64,000 nt of DNA from Escherichia coli (GTDB lineage Bacteria; Pseudomonadota; Gammaproteobacteria; Enterobacterales; Enterobacteriaceae). How positions within the stretch are numbered: position 1 is the stretch's first letter; each line of letters begins with the position of its first letter. This document shows positions 44,101-50,100 of this stretch, in pieces. The stretch lies in NCBI RefSeq assembly GCF_024298765.1, contig NZ_CP101211.1; one strand, 5' to 3'. A program made the position numbers.

Positions 44101-47100
44101 CTGATCCTGTAGCTGAACCTGAGAAATCAGTTTCGCAACAGGAAGACAATGTTGAAAATGGTTTTGATATCGAGCTCAAAGGCTGGTAACTGTTTGCTTT
44201 ATTAAAAACCCCAGATGGGTACTTCACCATCTGGGTGAGTACCCCTTTTTTATAAAGAGGTATTCTATGAAATTAGATCTTAAATCATCACCGCGCCATA
44301 TTAAGCGTTTACAGAATATAGCAAAAGTCATTAGCGGCTTAGGCGATGTAAGAGTTGTAATAGACGACAATACCAAAGGACCGTATTTTGATCCTGTAAA
44401 TAAAGTTTGTGTTTTACCAAACGGCGATTATAGCGATGATGACTTTGTCAGTCTGATTGAAGGTTTTACCTGTCATGAAGCTGGTCATGGTCGCTATACC
44501 GACAGCGAGGTTTACAGTGACGCCTTTAATAGTGTTCTCAAGTCATCTGAAGGGTTTACACGCTTCGATGACGGAATGAATGCAGAGTTTGAGAGCCTCG
44601 CTGAGAAACGTAAAGCTTATAGCAGGGCAAAACGTCTTACCGGGCTTATAAATCTGTTCGATGATGTACAGATGGAAGAGAAGGTTGGTAACGATTATCC
44701 GGATGCAAAGCGGCGGCTTGCAGCCACTTACGCACTGATGGTTAAAGCCGGAAGGATGACTCCTGATATATCTTCTCGTCCGGAAAATCCTGTCCTATTT
44801 ATTGAGTGGTATCTGCTTAACTCATTGCGAGTAAAAGTCCTTCAGCAGGCAGGTCACAAAGAAACACTCGATCCGTTTTTTGACTATGCCCAAAAGATAC
44901 TTTCTCCAGTAATTTCTGATGTTGAGGAAATTTTTCATGATGCTCTTGGTTGTGAAAATACTCAGGGCTGTGAATCCCTTGCTCGTAAGACCCTGGCTCT
45001 TTTAGAGAGACTGCGGGATGAGGCAAGGGAACAACAGCAGCAGACAGAGCAGGAGGAGCAGGAGGCATATGATGAATCCGAGACCGAGACCGAGACCGAT
45101 ACCGAATCAGAAGATAAATCGCTTGAGTCGACTGATAGTCGTGAGGATGATTCTGAGGACGATAGTGAAGGTCAGGCAGATACTTCCGATAACTCTGATC
45201 TTGCTCAAGAGGGATGTTCTGAGCCTTCAGAACTTGCTGAAGATAACGAGGGAAATAATGAACCCACCGGTGGCAATCCCACAGGTGATAACATTATTGA
45301 AGACGATACTGATGCGATTAACCCTTCCGAGAGTGAATCAGATGAAGCCAGTTCGACTAACGTTGAAGATGAAAGTAACTTTTCATCGGCTCAATGGGAG
45401 ATACTGGCAGATTTGTTGGATGCCTTTCTTGGCAGTGATGAGGATAGCGAAGATTATCACGATGCTTTGGCTAAAGAGATTGAAGGTATTGCATCAAAAG
45501 TATCCGATGACGTGAAAGCCGAATTCGGTGCTTCTGAATGGGATATCCCTGATCTCCTTATCGATTTGAATGTTTACAATGAGGCTTTGTCTCTGAGTCA
45601 TTCAATCGGTAGCGACTTGTCTGTTTTACAGCAGGTTAAAATGCGTGGCCGAAACAAAACTCATGAGCGTGGAATTACCTTCGATGGAAATCGATTAATT
45701 CTGTCACCAATGGGAGTTCGTGATGTCTTCAGAGCTCAAAGCGAATCTAAAAATAGAGGGCATGTTGGCCTCGTATTAGTTCGTGATATTTCAGCGTCAA
45801 TGGCTAATGATGAAAGATATATTCATGCCATTAAGTCAGATCTTGCTTTATCGATGGCCGCTGAAAGTTTGTCAAAAATGCATGTCTCCAATATAGTCTT
45901 TCCCTTCAAGGAAAGTGAATTTGAGATTATCAAAACGTTTGATCAAAGCGTTGAGGAATCTCTATCGAAATTCACTCTTGGATGTAAGGGTTATTATACC
46001 CCTACGGGATCGGCTTTAATGGCAGCTGTTGATCTGTTACTTGACAGCCAATTCGATAGGAAAATAATTTTTCTTATAACTGATGGTTATCCGAATAAAT
46101 CGGAATTTACTATCGGCGAAGTTATGGAAAAGGCTAAATGTAATGGAATAGAAATCGTTGGTGTTGGTATTAAGACTGATGAAATAATTGGTTTTGAAAC
46201 GGACACTTTCGTAACAGTTGATGATACTTCTTTATTGTCTATTGAAGTCAGTAAGCTAGTTCATCAAATACTTTCTTAATAAACTCTACCCAATCGGGGC
46301 AAAAGGCCCCGGTGGGTCTTTTTGCTCCATGAAGGAATAAGGAGCAAAATATGACTCAGATAAAAACTTACCGTGTAGAACATGAAAAAGTCGGTGCGAT
46401 GCATAAAGTCCGTATTTTCGGACGTGTTGGTGAAGTTATAAGCAATGATAGCCCTCAGGAAAGAATCTTCCGCGAAGTCACTATAGCGGAGGGTAATAGC
46501 CAGCAGGCTGCGTTACTTGTAGATAACTACATACAGCGTCTTGAGAATAATGGCTTCACGACTGAAGCATAAATGTTGAGGGCCCCCGGGCCCTCTTTCT
46601 TAAATTCTGCGTTGTGGGTTTCTCCCTGTCTTCTGCACCGCAGAAGGCATTGAGAAACTCACAATGCCAGATAAGAGAGATCATCATGACTTATGCATCC
46701 CCGGCTCTTCGTCGTAATCCACAGGAAGTATCTGAACACTTTATTAAACTCGTTCATGCTCGAATTGCTGAAGTGTCTGGCTGGAAGTATATATTCGAAA
46801 GAATACCTGCTTTCAAAGACGCTTGTGCAAAAGCCCCGAGCCAGGTTCCTTGCCCGTTTACTGGCGCAGGGAAATCGAAGTTTCGTTTCCGACAAAAAGA
46901 CCTTTATACCGGATGTGCGATCCATAATGACTTTCCGGTAAATGAGTTTTGCGACGGAATTGATGTTCTGGCGAAATATTATGAATTAAGTAAAACGCAG
47001 ACTTGCAAAAAGATTCTCTCAGATTTTTTCGGGATGGATCTGCATGCTCCGTTAACTGACGCCGACATTGAAAATGAACGACGCTATAAATCAGCAGTTC

Positions 47101-50100
47101 GTGCCACAGAAACTCTTGACCGAGAGGAAGTGGCAAAGCGAATGCGAAAACTTGATGTGATGTATCACTATACCGGTGAAATCAAGCCTAATACTCCTGT
47201 TGCTTTGTACCTCCGTAATCGTGGGATCTCCCGCTTACTGAGTCACTTACCAAAGGATTTAGGCTTTAATAACCGGATCTACTATTGGGATAAAGATAAG
47301 CAGAAATCGATTATCTATCCGGGAATGATTGCGATCTATCGTGACACCCGAGGTCGGCCTCTGACTATTCATAGAACATACGTAGACAAAAATGGTGATA
47401 AGGCACCTGTAGAAAATCCAAAGCTGATGATGAAGCCTCCTGCCGATATGACAGGTGGCTCAATTCAGTTGTTTGACCCTCACTATGATTCAGGTAGTTC
47501 GACCTGGACACTGGGAGTGGCTGAAGGGATCGAGAACGCGCTTTCTGTTGTAGAAGCGACTTCAACACCATGCTGGGCAGCCAGCTCCGCATGGTGCCTT
47601 GAAAACGTTACTGTTCCTGATTTTTTACTGCCTCCGCCGGATGTAAAATCTATAAACTTTTATATCTGGGCGGATAAGGATATTGCTAACTCACAAGGCA
47701 CTCGTGCCGGTATTGAAGCTGCTCAGCGACTTCAAAGCCGCATGGTTGAGTTTTTGGCTAAACGATATCCCGCATCAAAGCTGACAATTGAAGTCTTCGA
47801 ACCAGCACAAGATATTCCTGATGGGAAAAAGGGTATCGACTGGAACGATGTTCTCCAGTTAACAGGGCAGGATGGATTCCCGATTCACTGGGCTCCTGAA
47901 TGTCTTAATCAGCTGTAACAACGATAACTCCCCCGCTTTTTGCGGGGGGGGTTATCTTATCAATATTATATTTTAAAATTGTATTGATAAGATAACCGCT
48001 TTCCTTCGTGATAATTACCTGCCTTTAAGGTCTTTTCACGGCTGAGATGCTTGCTCAGTTAAATAAATGTGCGGTACTACTGGCTATGGTCGGTTGTATG
48101 ACATGGTTATTCCATAAACTATTAAAACCCATAACGGGAGTATTACCGTTATGGTGATGCTCGTCGTTTTACATCGGAGAGCATTTTAATGAATTTTCAA
48201 ATTAACGAAGTTTTTAATAAATTTGCTGCTGTTATAAAATCGCGCATCGTCAATGAACCATCGTCATGCTATTTGCTGCATGATAATGAGATAGATATAA
48301 CGATTTTGAAACATAGCATATTAGAAAATGACAGAAACCTGTTGTACGTAGTTCGTCCTTCAGGAACGTGTTTGTTGCGTTGTGACAAATATTTCTATCC
48401 GAAATATTATCTTCGTTGCCGTGGAGATTATAAGTCATTCATATATGTCCATCTTGATCTACATAGTGGTGAAGCTAAAGAAATCACATGGGAGCAAGCA
48501 GACGATATGCTGTCTAGTCCAGGAAAACCCCCATTAAAAGGGAATCTTGGACGATTTGAGTATATAAAAGTTGTGGTTGAGGACCTTCGTATTCGAGGTT
48601 ACGCTGATTATCTTCCTGCGTATAATCTTGATGACCTTCGCCGTTTTGCCTTACAGGACGACCGCCCATCCCTTGTCAGATACATTGACAATGTCATGGC
48701 AACGGTCTGATTGATTGCTAATTGATTTACATATTTTCCCTGATGGCCAACCTGCATCAGGGAGGCCTCAATAACGAATGGAGGCTGTATGAAGTTAGCT
48801 ACGGACCTGGTAAAAGCTATTTTGATTAGAAATGGCGTTGAACCAGTAAATATAAGCGAATCATCTAAGTTATCTTTGAAACAACCACTGACAGAACTTA
48901 AATTCAGTTTATATTTGCGAACTGAGCATTTATCTCACTTCCTACCCGGTTATGTTTATTCTATAAAAGAATGTCCACTGTCATATGACATCGGGATCGA
49001 AATTCAGAAAATCTTCGAAAGTTTACATTTGTTAAACGAAGAATTTGAATCCCTCGGTTTTGTTTCTGTATGGATAGAAATGCATCAAAGCATTTTTGAA
49101 CAAAGTCGGTTTAAGAAAAGTAACTTTACTTTTCGGGAGGAAGAGGTCGAGCTTGCTAAAGGGCTTGTTTGTTCTCACAATTCACAAATAAGTAATGCGG
49201 CTTATTTCTGGCTTCAGCACTTTGAGGAGTTTATGATTTATGTTCGTAATAAGCTTATCGACCTCTTTCGAGAGGCCTATGACCTGATCCTTGGAATGCA
49301 GCAAGTATTTTTCATTCGGGAAAAGGAAGAGCTGTTGAAAACTATAAGTTATGGCGATGAGCTGTATGAGGTGAAATTCATGGCGGCTGAGCTTTACTCT
49401 ATCGAACAGAACTTAAAGTGTTCTGAATCGATAAGTACAAAATCTCAAGCTTCGGCATATATTAACCGCATCCGTGAGTTTGTGCGTTCGGGGTGGAGGC
49501 AGGGCTATATAGTCTGCCATCATAAGCGAAGTAATCAAATTTCATCATTGTCATTACCGATGTACTTGAAAGATACGTCAGGCCGAAGTGCTCGAAAGCG
49601 AGTAAAACGTCTTATATCTTCTACAGTTTGTGGTAGAAATAAAGATTTAGGTCTTACAGATTTTTAATTAAATTATACCCATGTGGGGATCACACCCCAT
49701 ATGGGAGTGATCCCTTTTTTTATTGAGAGAGGATCACATGAAAATTATCGAAAAAATCATTAATGCCTTTTTGGTTGTTCAACATAAAAAAATACAGGTT
49801 AAAAACATTACATTTTTAGACAATGGGCAGGGCATGTTCTCTGGTATGTCTTTTGATGCTGATGTTTCACTGGAGTTTATGTATGAATCAGCAAAAGCAT
49901 ATAGTTCTTGTTTCTGTGATATTCCCTTTCCAGGTTTTGAAGATGCAAATCTGGAGGAAATTACGAAATTTCAATTAGATGCTCTGAAGCAAAGAAAGAA
50001 TCATTCTTTCTTTGTTAACCATTTGAGGTTTCCTATAGTTTTAAGGGAAGGGTGCAAAATCGAAAGAGGAGAAGTCTATTCAATTTCGAATTGCACTTAT

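What the first reader, a model, noticed from the sequence alone, without database searches (positions are those of the whole stretch)
46686..47918. Zinc-ribbon plus Toprim primase-like protein inside the accessory array
The N-terminus has a Cys/His cluster (CPFTGAGKSKFRFRQKDLYTGCAIHNDFPVNEFCDG) and the C-terminal half has Toprim-like acidic motifs (EGIENA; WADKD; DWND). Plasmid primases often support establishment in the recipient by priming the transferred strand. The protein is flanked by strong hairpins at 46578-46599 and 47924-47954.
Basis: partly seen in the sequence, partly recalled or inferred. Interest (0 to 1): 0.5.

Follow-up and report, generated by a model that had tools for sequence, protein, structure and literature searches.

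The report
IncHI plasmid stand-alone DnaG-type primase gene
This gene on a large IncHI2 resistance plasmid encodes a stand-alone primase-like enzyme related to the phage P4 and DnaG primases, an uncharacterised but fairly ordinary member of a known family, with a worn-down zinc site and a conserved RNA hairpin that probably gates its translation.

Summary
The ORF (46686-47918, 410 aa), its motifs and both flanking hairpins are real. The window is the R478-type IncHI2 backbone, and RefSeq already labels the gene "toprim domain-containing protein" in about 1,100 plasmids. Pfam (DUF7146 + Toprim_3), PHROG "DNA primase", profile alignments to P4 alpha (E 1e-26) and E. coli DnaG (E 5e-9), and a confident AlphaFold model whose top PDB matches are all DnaG-type primases show a primase fold with an intact acidic active site. 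Only 2 of the 4 canonical zinc ligands survive. A remodelled metal site is possible but untested. The gene is IncHI core backbone, not accessory cargo. It lies about 111 kb from the relaxase, so it is not in a leading region. It follows a CobS-like AAA, DUF3150 and CobT-like VWA trio in eight divergent lineages. In R27 the block is switched on with the transfer genes. Most likely it is a transfer-associated primase. Its activity is untested. Verdict: new member of a known kind, modest interest.

The parts
46686..47918 (+). Primase-like gene, 410 aa (identical to RefSeq WP_000220381.1, 'toprim domain-containing protein')
   Evidence: 100% identical in about 1,100 IncHI2 plasmids, including R478. 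dN/dS = 0.10 against the IncHI1 ortholog.
46833..46985 (+). Residues 50-100: primase zinc-ribbon homolog with a degenerate ligand set (C56, T59, H80, F83 at the DnaG C40/H43/C61/C64 positions)
46986..47180 (+). Residues 101-165: helical linker, longer than in the short phage homologs
   Evidence: AlphaFold secondary structure, helices H103-115, H125-142, H146-161. Alignment gaps in the short homologs.
47181..47495 (+). Residues 166-270: DUF7146, the N-terminal subdomain of the DnaG-type RNA-polymerase domain (conserved R179, H229, R230, K239; the PK at 245-246 aligns to DnaG K229)
47511..47873 (+). Residues 276-396: Toprim domain with E280/E283 (EGIENA), D330/D332 (DKD) and D385-W-N-D388
   Evidence: Pfam Toprim_3 at 2e-12. 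The E-E-D-D tetrad is intact in 98 of 103 relatives. E280, D330, D332 and D385 map to DnaG E265, D309, D311 and D345. The D-aromatic-N-acidic motif is described in PMC5512222.
46578..46595 (+). Terminator-like hairpin after the small upstream ORF
46593..46601 (+). Pyrimidine tract CUCUUUCUU. It is the terminator's T-tract and is also predicted to pair with the Shine-Dalgarno sequence (anti-SD).
   Evidence: Minimum-energy and partition-function folds.
46606..46671 (+). Conserved 29-bp leader hairpin in the 5' UTR of the primase gene
   Evidence: dG -42.9 kcal/mol, z -7.9, against -34.2 on the opposite strand. 91.8% of cells paired against 37-47% in slid controls, and 7 pairs with changes on both sides. 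No Rfam family matches. Single copy per plasmid.
46673..46679 (+). Shine-Dalgarno sequence AAGAGAG, 6 nt before the ATG. Paired in the predicted fold.
   Evidence: mean P(unpaired) 0.16 in IncHI2.
47923..47956 (+). Strong terminator-like hairpin after the primase gene
   Evidence: dG -24.5 kcal/mol, z -5.2.
46351..46572 (+). Conserved 73-aa ORF immediately upstream, present in all 8 IncHI-clade lineages examined
41629..42687 (+). CobS/CbbQ-like AAA_5 ATPase, first gene of the conserved trio upstream of the primase gene
   Evidence: Pfam AAA_5 at 5e-28. PHROG 249. Homologous to the IncC CbbQ/NirQ genes.
43056..44189 (+). DUF3150 protein, second gene of the trio
   Evidence: Pfam at 2e-23.
44267..46279 (+). 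CobT-like VWA protein with an acidic low-complexity centre, third gene of the trio

Best explanation
The gene encodes a stand-alone primase of the DnaG/Toprim superfamily, of the mobile-element type exemplified by the primase domain of phage P4 alpha and, more distantly, by TraC and Sog.

Domain order: a zinc-ribbon-like domain, a helical linker, the N-terminal subdomain of the primase RNA-polymerase domain (annotated DUF7146), and a Toprim domain. There is no helicase domain.

Shown:
- The fold, the homology and the full set of metal-binding acidic residues are present.
- The gene is under purifying selection.
- It is core IncHI backbone.
- In R27 its block is transcribed with the transfer regulon.

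Inferred:
- The protein synthesises short RNA primers on single-stranded plasmid DNA generated by conjugation. The most likely job is complementary-strand synthesis in the recipient, as for TraC and Sog. It may get there by export from the donor or be made early after entry.
- It works alongside the adjacent CobS-like AAA, DUF3150 and CobT-like VWA genes. The AAA ATPase is a distant homolog of an IncC gene that, together with its downstream neighbour, was shown to act on entry into a new host.
- Canonical zinc coordination has been lost in this subclade, so template recognition probably does not depend on a classical Cys4/CHC2 zinc site.
- Translation is gated by a conserved leader. A 29-bp hairpin brings an upstream pyrimidine tract onto the Shine-Dalgarno sequence. 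Cleavage of the long duplex, for example by RNase III, or another unfolding event would be needed for efficient translation.
For: Identity:
- Pfam DUF7146 (2e-19) and Toprim_3 (2e-12); PHROG 510 'DNA primase' at 1.4e-27 over residues 54-395.
- hhalign to P4 alpha residues 4-303, its N-terminal region (known from the literature as the primase domain), at 99.7% probability and E 1.4e-26, with AEGIENA on AEGYATA.
- hhalign to R751 TraC at E 2.6e-5.
- hhalign to E. coli DnaG residues 36-359 at E 5e-9, mapping E280, D330, D332 and D385 to E265, D309, D311 and D345.
- AlphaFold model with pLDDT 95.4 and pTM 0.89.
- The top 25 Foldseek PDB hits are all DnaG, T4 gp61 or T7 gp4 primases.
- The catalytic E-E-D-D tetrad is intact in 98 of 103 relatives.
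- The DWND motif is the 'D-aromatic-N-acidic' synapomorphy of active mobile-element primases (PMC5512222).
- dN/dS is 0.10 between the IncHI2 and IncHI1 orthologs.

Link to transfer:
- In the R27 microarray tables (PMC7366339), the ORFs beyond trhI (R0198-R0210, R0001-2) are 1.7- to 23-fold higher at 25 C than at 37 C.
- The same ORFs are derepressed 19- to 115-fold in the htdA mutant and are silent at 37 C.
- The toprim homolog is R0203 or R0204, with ratios of about 5-fold and 40- to 115-fold (mapping).

Entry and establishment association:
- The order AAA, DUF3150, VWA, toprim recurs in 8 divergent lineages. SSB lies nearby in two of them, with a PD-(D/E)XK nuclease as well in the Xanthomonas plasmid.
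- The IncC CbbQ/AAA_5 gene vcrx089, with vcrx090, acts as anti-restriction in the recipient (PMC7498323). It is a homolog of the IncHI2 AAA gene (26.8% identity, E 2e-19).

Leader.
Against: - No biochemical or genetic data exist for this protein or any close relative. Paper searches found nothing on the gene.
- Two of the four canonical zinc ligands are missing, and there is no PF08273 hit. In DnaG and T7 primases the zinc domain is needed for template-directed initiation (established knowledge), so activity could be altered or lost.
- The gene is about 111 kb from mobI and the MobH relaxase on a 233-kb circle. It would enter a recipient late and is not a leading-region gene.
- The R27 ORF assignment (R0203 or R0204) comes from counting ORFs and is off by at most one.
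- Co-regulation with the tra genes would also fit a donor-side role.
- SD sequestration is only a folding prediction (P(unpaired) 0.16-0.6 across lineages).
Confidence: 0.55

Rival explanations
1. It is a vegetative-replication or repriming primase. It would prime lagging-strand synthesis or replication restart for the large plasmid itself, reducing dependence on host DnaG, with no specific role in conjugation.
For: - The short homologs with intact C4 ribbons sit in prophage replication modules, overlapping a DEAD/ResIII helicase gene.
- Phage hits are annotated as replication primases.
- P4 alpha is a replicative primase-helicase (for its domain content; its function is established knowledge).
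- The same IncHI block contains a Tus-like Ter protein and the UvrD-like TrhI helicase.
Against: - In R27 the block is essentially silent at 37 C, where the plasmid replicates normally, and is controlled by the transfer repressor HtdA.
- There is no adjacent or fused replicative helicase.
- The close clade travels with the CobS-like, DUF3150 and VWA genes in conjugative elements, not with replication initiators.
Confidence: 0.15
2. It is a primase-derived protein that no longer primes. Having lost the zinc site, it would use its Toprim centre for something else, such as nicking or binding nucleic acid. It would act as one component of an anti-restriction or host-defence-evasion machine with the AAA, DUF3150 and VWA proteins.
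For: - The zinc ligand set is degenerate in 37 of 103 relatives, including the query.
- Linkage to the AAA, DUF3150 and VWA trio is tight across 8 lineages.
- The IncC AAA homolog vcrx089, with vcrx090, is an anti-restriction function (PMC7498323).
Against: - The whole primase catalytic core is retained, not just Toprim. This includes the N-terminal subdomain and its conserved basic residues.
- The primase-specific DaN-acidic motif is intact.
- PADLOC gives only a 14-bit sub-threshold match.
- R751 TraC also shows no Pfam zinc-ribbon domain, and the RP4 TraC primase of the same type is known to be active (established knowledge). A classical ribbon is therefore not obligatory.
- The IncC homolog is not linked to vcrx089.
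Confidence: 0.15
3. It is a decaying remnant with no current function.
For: The zinc ligands have eroded, and expression in wild-type R27 is very low (49-403 array units).
Against: - dN/dS is 0.10 with dS about 1.4.
- The gene is intact and syntenic in IncHI1, IncHI2 and IncHI1B-type plasmids and in five further lineages.
- The catalytic residues are invariant.
- The leader is conserved.
Confidence: 0.03

Closest known systems
Primase domain of bacteriophage P4 alpha protein (residues ~1-300; EGYATA motif)
   Same: It is homologous over the entire primase domain (hhalign 99.7% probability, E 1.4e-26). The order is the same: ribbon, middle domain, Toprim_3. AEGIENA aligns to AEGYATA, DKD to DRD, and DWND to DWND.
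   Different: P4 alpha has an intact Zn_Ribbon_Prim domain (1.9e-18) and a fused D5_N/DUF5906/Pox_D5 helicase and origin-binding part. The IncHI protein is stand-alone, has a longer helical linker, and keeps only 2 of 4 zinc ligands.
Conjugative plasmid primases TraC (RP4/R751, IncP) and Sog (ColIb-P9/R64, IncI1)
   Same: They share a Toprim_3-type catalytic domain with the EGYATA-like motif (E 2.6e-5 to R751 TraC residues 1159-1294). They are encoded on conjugative plasmids, and R751 TraC has no Pfam zinc-ribbon hit either. They are the functional model: primases exported to the recipient to prime the transferred strand (PMC5512222).
   Different: TraC and Sog are large polyvalent proteins (R751 TraC is 1448 aa, with ArdC-N and metallopeptidase domains). 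They are encoded near oriT in the Tra1/leading region (established knowledge). The IncHI protein is 410 aa with a single function and lies about 111 kb from the relaxase. Similarity is limited to about 130 residues. Export has not been tested.
Bacterial DnaG primase (zinc-binding domain plus RNA-polymerase domain)
   Different: Sequence identity is only about 13-18%. There is no C-terminal DnaB-binding domain. The CHC2 zinc site is not conserved.
IncC (IncA/C) 575-aa 'toprim domain-containing protein' (WP_000122923.1)
   Same: It is 35% identical over residues 171-399. It is also on a MOBH/MPF_F plasmid. It is also preceded by a long sense-strand-specific leader hairpin whose flanks pair with the Shine-Dalgarno sequence.
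   Different: It is longer, with a different N-terminal half. It is not adjacent to the CbbQ-like hde genes in IncC. It is also uncharacterised.

Membership tests
DnaG/Toprim primase superfamily | Toprim fold with a conserved Glu and a DxD motif, plus a third acidic cluster | tested here: met
   Toprim_3 at 2e-12. E280, D330, D332 and D385 align to DnaG E265, D309, D311 and D345. These residues are invariant or nearly so in 103 relatives.
DnaG/Toprim primase superfamily | An N-terminal RNA-polymerase subdomain precedes Toprim, giving the full catalytic core rather than a bare Toprim | tested here: met
DnaG/Toprim primase superfamily | A zinc-binding domain with four Cys/His ligands | tested here: not met
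   The ribbon fold and homology are present. The ligand columns read C, T, H, F, so only 2 of 4 are Cys/His. There is no PF08273 hit at E up to 1. A remodelled site using C56, C77, H80 and C89 cannot be excluded, but C77 and C89 are not conserved.
DnaG/Toprim primase superfamily | Template-dependent synthesis of RNA primers | not testable with these tools
   This needs biochemistry. No published assay was found.
Mobile-element Toprim primases (P4 alpha / TraC / Sog type; Pfam Toprim_3) | EGYATA-type motif (E-G-x-x-x-A) at the first Toprim strand | tested here: met
   AEGIENA aligns to AEGYATA of P4 alpha and to SEGYATA of R751 TraC. E, G and the final A are kept. The Y-A-T is replaced by I-E-N; the family consensus is I-E-T.
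Mobile-element Toprim primases (P4 alpha / TraC / Sog type; Pfam Toprim_3) | The synapomorphic D-aromatic-N-acidic motif before strand 4 (Iyer et al. 2017) | tested here: met
   The query has D385-W-N-D388. Across 103 relatives the motif is DWND in 51 and DW[LAH]D in most of the rest. The definition comes from PMC5512222.
Mobile-element Toprim primases (P4 alpha / TraC / Sog type; Pfam Toprim_3) | Export to the recipient through the type IV secretion system (the TraC/Sog property) | not testable with these tools
   No sequence signature is available. A translocation assay is needed.
P4 alpha-type primase-helicase | A fused D5_N / superfamily-3 helicase domain C-terminal to the primase | tested here: not met
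   The query ends 14 residues after Toprim_3. P4 alpha carries D5_N, DUF5906 and Pox_D5.
Pfam DUF7146 + Toprim_3 architecture | Both domains score above their gathering thresholds, in this order | tested here: met
   70.2 bits against a cut-off of 27, and 47.8 bits against 27.2. All 76 homologs share the pair.
Leading-region establishment genes | Located within the first tens of kb that enter the recipient, next to oriT | tested here: not met
   mobI is at 158.3 kb and the MobH relaxase at 159.5-162.7 kb, while the gene is at 46.7 kb on a 233-kb circle. The position of oriT next to mobI is inferred from SXT and R27 (PMC10838148).
Toprim nucleases of defence systems (OLD, GajA, AriB, JetD) | A match to defence-system models, usually with an ATPase partner domain | tested here: not met
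   PADLOC gives only a 14-bit hit (E 0.004) to a DnaG-like segment of a DRT model. The protein has no ATPase domain.

The most novel reading that the evidence does not exclude
The conserved hairpin directly upstream of the primase gene may not be only an mRNA translational clamp. It could also act at the DNA level on the transferred single strand. One version is a dedicated initiation signal recognised by this zinc-less primase, analogous to the RSF1010 ssiA/ssiB sites and RepB'. Another is a single-strand promoter like Frpo.

In that reading, the AAA, DUF3150, VWA, small ORF and primase block would be a self-contained entry module of MOBH elements that couples defence evasion to sequence-specific priming.

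The evidence does not exclude this:
- The element is single-copy.
- It is more conserved than the coding sequence (83% nucleotide identity against 45% protein identity).
- An analogous hairpin precedes the unlinked IncC homolog.
Probability: 0.1. Interest if true: 0.7.

Novelty: new member of a known kind. Interest (0 to 1): 0.35.

Why it matters
IncHI plasmids (R27, pHCM1, R478 and the mcr-1/mcr-9 carriers) are major multidrug-resistance vectors, and most of their roughly 130 core genes have no assigned function.

- Assigning this gene as a transfer-regulated primase gives one concrete, testable function in the block downstream of Tra2.
- It defines a recurrent module in MOBH elements: a CobS-like AAA, DUF3150, a CobT-like VWA, a small ORF and the primase.
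- If the enzyme is active with only two of the four zinc ligands, that would be informative about what the zinc-binding domain does in DnaG-type primases.
- The conserved leader hairpin is a candidate uncatalogued cis-regulatory RNA.

None of this overturns current understanding.

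Tried and rejected
- **NCBIfam:** no model matched.
- **PDB by sequence:** nothing significant with the single sequence or with the profile. DnaG 1dd9 appeared only at E 2.3. Fold comparison was needed.
- **PADLOC:** no defence-system membership.
- **Rfam (38-58 kb, E up to 1):** nothing at the leader or at either terminator, only sub-threshold chance hits.
- **Leading-region idea:** rejected on position.
- **A promoter inside the leader hairpin (Frpo-like):** the sigma-70 scan lists no site at 46600-46690. By eye, TTGAGA sits 16 nt from TAAGAG, which is a poor -10 hexamer. Not supported, though not excluded for ssDNA.
- **Additional copies of the leader:** none in about 218 of the 233 kb searched with the covariance model, and none by pattern search in the window.
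- **The leader in the most distant linked homologs** (P0020, P0022, Xanthomonas, Vibrio): no comparable hairpin.
- **Literature:** no paper on this gene in IncHI. The R27 Tra1 and Tra2 papers, the IncA/C TraDIS paper and Lanka & Barth 1981 are not held. No supplementary files are held for the IncC TnSeq paper. I could therefore not check whether IncH plasmids were negative in the early plasmid-primase surveys.
- **Zinc-site geometry in the AlphaFold model:** coordinates are not exposed, so the distances among C56, C77, H80 and C89 could not be measured.
- **Exact R27 ORF number for the homolog:** ambiguous between R0203 and R0204.
- **Paralogy of the downstream ~300-aa genes:** BLASTP detects only one pair.

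Full report
**1. What is there**

The window is the backbone of an IncHI2 plasmid of the R478 type. The 1.5 kb around the finding is at least 99% identical in 1,116 plasmids of Escherichia, Salmonella, Enterobacter and Klebsiella, typed as IncHI2A, MOBH and MPF_F. The upstream leader and gene start (46596-46700) are identical in R478 itself.

The ORF runs from ATG 46686 to TAA 47918 and encodes 410 aa. It is identical to RefSeq WP_000220381.1, labelled 'toprim domain-containing protein'.
- The Cys/His stretch is residues 56-91.
- EGIENA is residues 280-285.
- WADKD is residues 328-332.
- DWND is residues 385-388.

Both flanking hairpins are real. The upstream one is at 46578-46595 (dG -14.4 kcal/mol, z -2.45). 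The downstream one is at 47923-47956 (dG -24.5, z -5.2). Terminator-like hairpins follow most genes of this array, with 20 found against 6.3 expected, so they are a property of the operon and not of this gene.

**2. It is a DnaG-type primase by sequence and by fold**

Sequence evidence:
- Pfam gives DUF7146 (residues 153-253, 2e-19) and Toprim_3 (276-396, 2e-12), both well above their gathering scores.
- PHROG 510 'DNA primase' matches residues 54-395 at 1.4e-27.
- NCBIfam and PDB sequence searches are silent.
- A profile of 24 relatives aligns with the N-terminal ~300 residues of phage P4 alpha (residues 4-303; 99.7% probability, E 1.4e-26), the region known from the literature as its primase domain. 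AEGIENA falls on the AEGYATA motif, DKD on DRD, and DWND on DWND.
- The same profile hits the Toprim primase region of R751 TraC more weakly (E 2.6e-5, SEGYATA).
- A 103-sequence profile aligns with E. coli DnaG residues 36-359 (95.9% probability, E 5e-9). This maps E280, D330, D332 and D385 onto DnaG E265, D309, D311 and D345. It also maps the conserved P-K of 'NPKLMM' onto K229 of the KYLNS motif.

Structural evidence:
- An AlphaFold2 model built on that alignment is confident (pLDDT 95.4, pTM 0.89).
- Its 25 best Foldseek matches in the PDB are all DnaG catalytic cores, T4 gp61, the Aquifex ZBD+RPD structure or T7 gp4.
- DUF7146 is therefore the N-terminal subdomain of the primase RNA-polymerase domain. 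The protein contains the full catalytic core, not a bare Toprim.

Two further points support an active enzyme:
- Iyer et al. [quoted passage not shown] D385-W-N-D388 fits it exactly.
- The catalytic E-E-D-D tetrad is intact in 98 of 103 relatives. The gene is under purifying selection, with dN/dS 0.10 and dS about 1.4 between the IncHI2 and IncHI1 orthologs.

**3. The 'zinc ribbon' is degenerate**

Homologs at about 30% identity carry PF08273 (Zn_Ribbon_Prim). The query and its close relatives do not.

The four canonical ligand columns correspond to DnaG C40, H43, C61 and C64. Across the 103 relatives they read as follows:

| Pattern | Number of relatives |
|---|---|
| C-H-C-C | 48 |
| C-C-C-C | 6 |
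| Two or fewer Cys/His | 37 |

The query reads C56-T59-H80-F83, so it belongs to the last group.

The degenerate subclade keeps the ribbon's glycine and aromatic framework (PCP.tG.GkTKFR...TGg.YHND.G...DGI). Some members have no Cys or His there at all, for example P0019 and P0087.

Within the IncHI subclade, C56 (8 of 9), Cys or His at position 77 (7 of 8) and H80 (8 of 8) are kept, with a variable fourth candidate (C89 or H85). A shifted knuckle ([C/H]77-x-x-H80) could therefore still hold a metal in IncHI1 and IncHI2. I could not measure the geometry.

R751 TraC also shows no Pfam zinc-ribbon domain, and the RP4 TraC primase of the same type is known to be active, so a classical ribbon is not obligatory for this kind of primase.

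**4. Context: core backbone, not leading region, in a recurrent module**

The gene is syntenic in three IncHI types:
- IncHI1, in pHCM1 and R27, at 78.5% identity.
- Klebsiella IncHI1B-type plasmids, at 45% identity.
- IncHI2.

Altogether 3,211 plasmids carry a homolog. These include IncC plasmids, whose 575-aa toprim protein matches residues 171-399 at 35%.

On the 233-kb reference plasmid the positions are as follows:
- mobI lies at 158.3 kb.
- The MobH relaxase lies at 159.5-162.7 kb.
- traD lies at 162.7 kb.
- The primase gene lies at 46.7 kb, about 111 kb from that region in either direction.

oriT adjoins mobI in related elements (PMC10838148). The gene is therefore not in a leading region.

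The gene order is trhI helicase, three hypothetical genes, a CobS/CbbQ-like AAA_5 ATPase, a small ORF, DUF3150, a CobT-like VWA protein, a 73-aa ORF and then the primase gene. The order AAA, DUF3150, VWA, toprim recurs in eight divergent lineages:
- IncHI2.
- IncHI1.
- Klebsiella IncHI1B.
- P0019, at 40% identity.
- P0020, at 32% identity, with SSB upstream.
- P0022, at 32% identity, with an intact ribbon and with RNR and RadC genes in between.
- A Xanthomonas MOBH plasmid, at 27% identity, preceded by ssb and a PD-(D/E)XK nuclease.
- A Vibrio plasmid, where only the VWA gene was detected.

Four more lineages at 54-61% identity were examined. Three show the DUF3150, VWA, small ORF, toprim order. 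The Photorhabdus (P0012) locus shows only the small ORF and toprim, with no DUF3150 or VWA Pfam hit.

By contrast, the short homologs (~310 aa) with intact C4 ribbons sit in prophage replication modules, overlapping a DEAD/ResIII helicase gene.

The AAA gene has IncC and IncA homologs annotated CbbQ/NirQ (26.8% identity, E 2e-19). In IncC pVCR94, the CbbQ_C/AAA_5 gene vcrx089 together with vcrx090 confers anti-restriction that acts in the recipient. It belongs to the host-defence-evasion operon with ssb-bet-exo (PMC7498323).

**5. Published expression data place the block in the transfer regulon**

The supplementary microarray tables of Gibert et al. 2020 for R27 (PMC7366339) cover the ORFs beyond trhI (R0003). 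These are R0002, R0001 and then R0210 down to R0198.
- They are 1.7- to 23-fold higher at 25 C, the conjugation-permissive temperature, than at 37 C. The effect decays with distance from trhI.
- In the htdA (derepressed) mutant at 25 C they rise 19- to 115-fold. They stay silent at 37 C.
- The paper notes that most non-tra genes of R27 behave the opposite way, being higher at 37 C.

I counted RefSeq genes between IS2 (insD = R0195) and trhI against the R-numbers. On that count, the toprim homolog (R27 173,473-174,726) is R0203 or R0204.

| ORF | 25 C | 37 C | htdA mutant, 25 C | Derepression |
|---|---|---|---|---|
| R0203 | 49 | 10 | 5,679 | 115-fold |
| R0204 | 403 | 77 | 15,984 | 40-fold |

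Either way the gene is co-regulated with the transfer genes. The distance-dependent decay fits the partial terminators seen after each gene.

**6.

Between the small terminator and the start codon lies a 29-bp hairpin at 46606-46671.
- Its dG is -42.9 kcal/mol (z -7.9) on the mRNA-sense strand and only -34.2 on the other strand, because of recurrent G.U pairs.
- It is conserved in IncHI1, in the Klebsiella plasmids and in five further lineages. In the Klebsiella plasmids it is 83-84% identical at the nucleotide level, where the protein is only 45% identical.
- On an 8-sequence alignment, 91.8% of cells pair against 37-47% when the partners are slid. Seven pairs change on both sides, which 0 of 500 shuffles reach. 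Most of these compensatory changes come from one sequence.
- No Rfam family matches.
- A covariance model finds one copy per IncHI plasmid in about 218 of 233 kb searched.
- The model also gives a weak hit (20.9 bits, E about 0.01-0.03) ending 11 nt before the start codon of the IncC toprim gene. That region folds into its own ~27-bp hairpin (region dG -63.7, z -8.6; opposite strand -37.9).

In the folds, the pyrimidine tract 5' of the hairpin pairs with the Shine-Dalgarno sequence. This tract is CUCUUUCUU at 46593-46601 and is also the terminator's T-tract. The SD is AAGAGAG at 46673-46679. The SD is at least partly paired in the minimum-energy structure of all eight IncHI-clade leaders and of the IncC leader, with mean P(unpaired) 0.16-0.6.

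I infer a translational clamp. A duplex this long is a typical RNase III substrate (established knowledge). Cleavage would separate the anti-SD from the SD, as in other RNase III-activated mRNAs. This step is inference and is untested.

**7. Most likely mechanism, and rivals**

Best supported (confidence about 0.55 for the whole chain, about 0.9 for 'primase fold with an intact active site'): a stand-alone mobile-element DnaG-type primase. It would be made only when the transfer regulon is on and further gated at translation. It would prime complementary-strand synthesis on conjugatively transferred ssDNA, together with neighbours that act on entry into a new host.

Rivals:
- A vegetative or repriming primase (0.15). 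This is weakened by silence at 37 C and by the lack of a helicase partner.
- A primase-derived non-priming component of an anti-restriction machine (0.15). This is weakened by retention of the whole catalytic core and the primase-specific motifs.
- A decaying remnant (0.03). This is contradicted by dN/dS and synteny.

**8. Novelty**

The family is known, and the gene is already labelled as a Toprim protein. Computational work has already argued that such proteins are primases (PMC5512222). No experiment addresses this protein or its IncC relative in the literature I could search.

It is a new, uncharacterised member of a known kind. Its modestly interesting features are a zinc-eroded ribbon, a recurrent gene module, transfer-regulon control and an uncatalogued leader hairpin.

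Noticed in passing
window 46593-46679: There is a conserved 29-bp leader hairpin (46606-46671). Its flanks pair an upstream pyrimidine tract with the Shine-Dalgarno sequence of the primase gene. It is more conserved than the coding sequence, has no Rfam family, and is single-copy per plasmid.
   Followed up: yes
L008:10865-10940 (IncC plasmid pTC2, NC_019375): The IncC toprim gene, which is distantly related and sits in a different gene context, is preceded by its own ~27-bp sense-strand-specific hairpin. An outer stem pairs CCUCCUU with the SD AAGGAGA. The Alcaligenes homolog (L014) shows a smaller version.
   Followed up: partly
window 47950-47997: An A+T-rich near-perfect palindrome with 23-nt arms 2 nt apart (GGTTATCTTATCAATATTATATT / AAAATTGTATTGATAAGATAACC) lies immediately after the G+C-rich terminator. 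A related GGTTATCT...AGATAATCC pairing exists in IncHI1. It may be an operator or the promoter region for the next gene.
   Followed up: no
window 46351-46572: A 73-aa ORF with no Pfam or PHROG hit is conserved directly upstream of the primase gene in all eight IncHI-clade lineages (61-76 aa; shared IK..RVE, P.E..R.V and LV..FI..L..GF positions). It is a candidate partner protein.
   Followed up: partly
window 41629-46279: A CobS/CbbQ-like AAA_5 ATPase, DUF3150 and a CobT-like VWA protein (with a long acidic low-complexity centre) form a trio that recurs upstream of primase homologs in divergent MOBH elements. The AAA gene is a distant homolog of the IncC anti-restriction gene vcrx089. The trio's function is unknown.
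   Followed up: partly
window 42000-52000: Terminator-like hairpins are three-fold enriched (20 against 6.3 expected) and sit after almost every gene. R27 array data show expression decaying with distance from trhI, which is consistent with serial partial termination.
   Followed up: partly
window 12296-15105 (- strand): The leader covariance model gives four weak hits (11-13.5 bits) at 12296-12394, 13052-13150, 14296-14379 and 15007-15105. They lie in a stretch (about 11.6-16 kb) with no listed CDS in the plasmid record. This suggests a set of repeated hairpin-forming units there.
   Followed up: no
window 46662-46688: An in-frame ATG sits 8 codons upstream of the annotated start, inside the 3' arm of the leader hairpin. 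RefSeq uses the equivalent upstream ATG for the IncHI1 protein (417 aa). It is not in frame in the Klebsiella leader, so the SD-preceded ATG at 46686 is the likely true start.
   Followed up: partly
Only one pair (51729-52667 and 52839-53795) is detectably paralogous by BLASTP (25% identity, E 2e-16).
   Followed up: partly
window 41000-41144: There is a sub-threshold Rfam match to RSV_RNA (24 bits against a gathering score of 105, E 0.002) inside a hypothetical gene. It is almost certainly chance.
   Followed up: no
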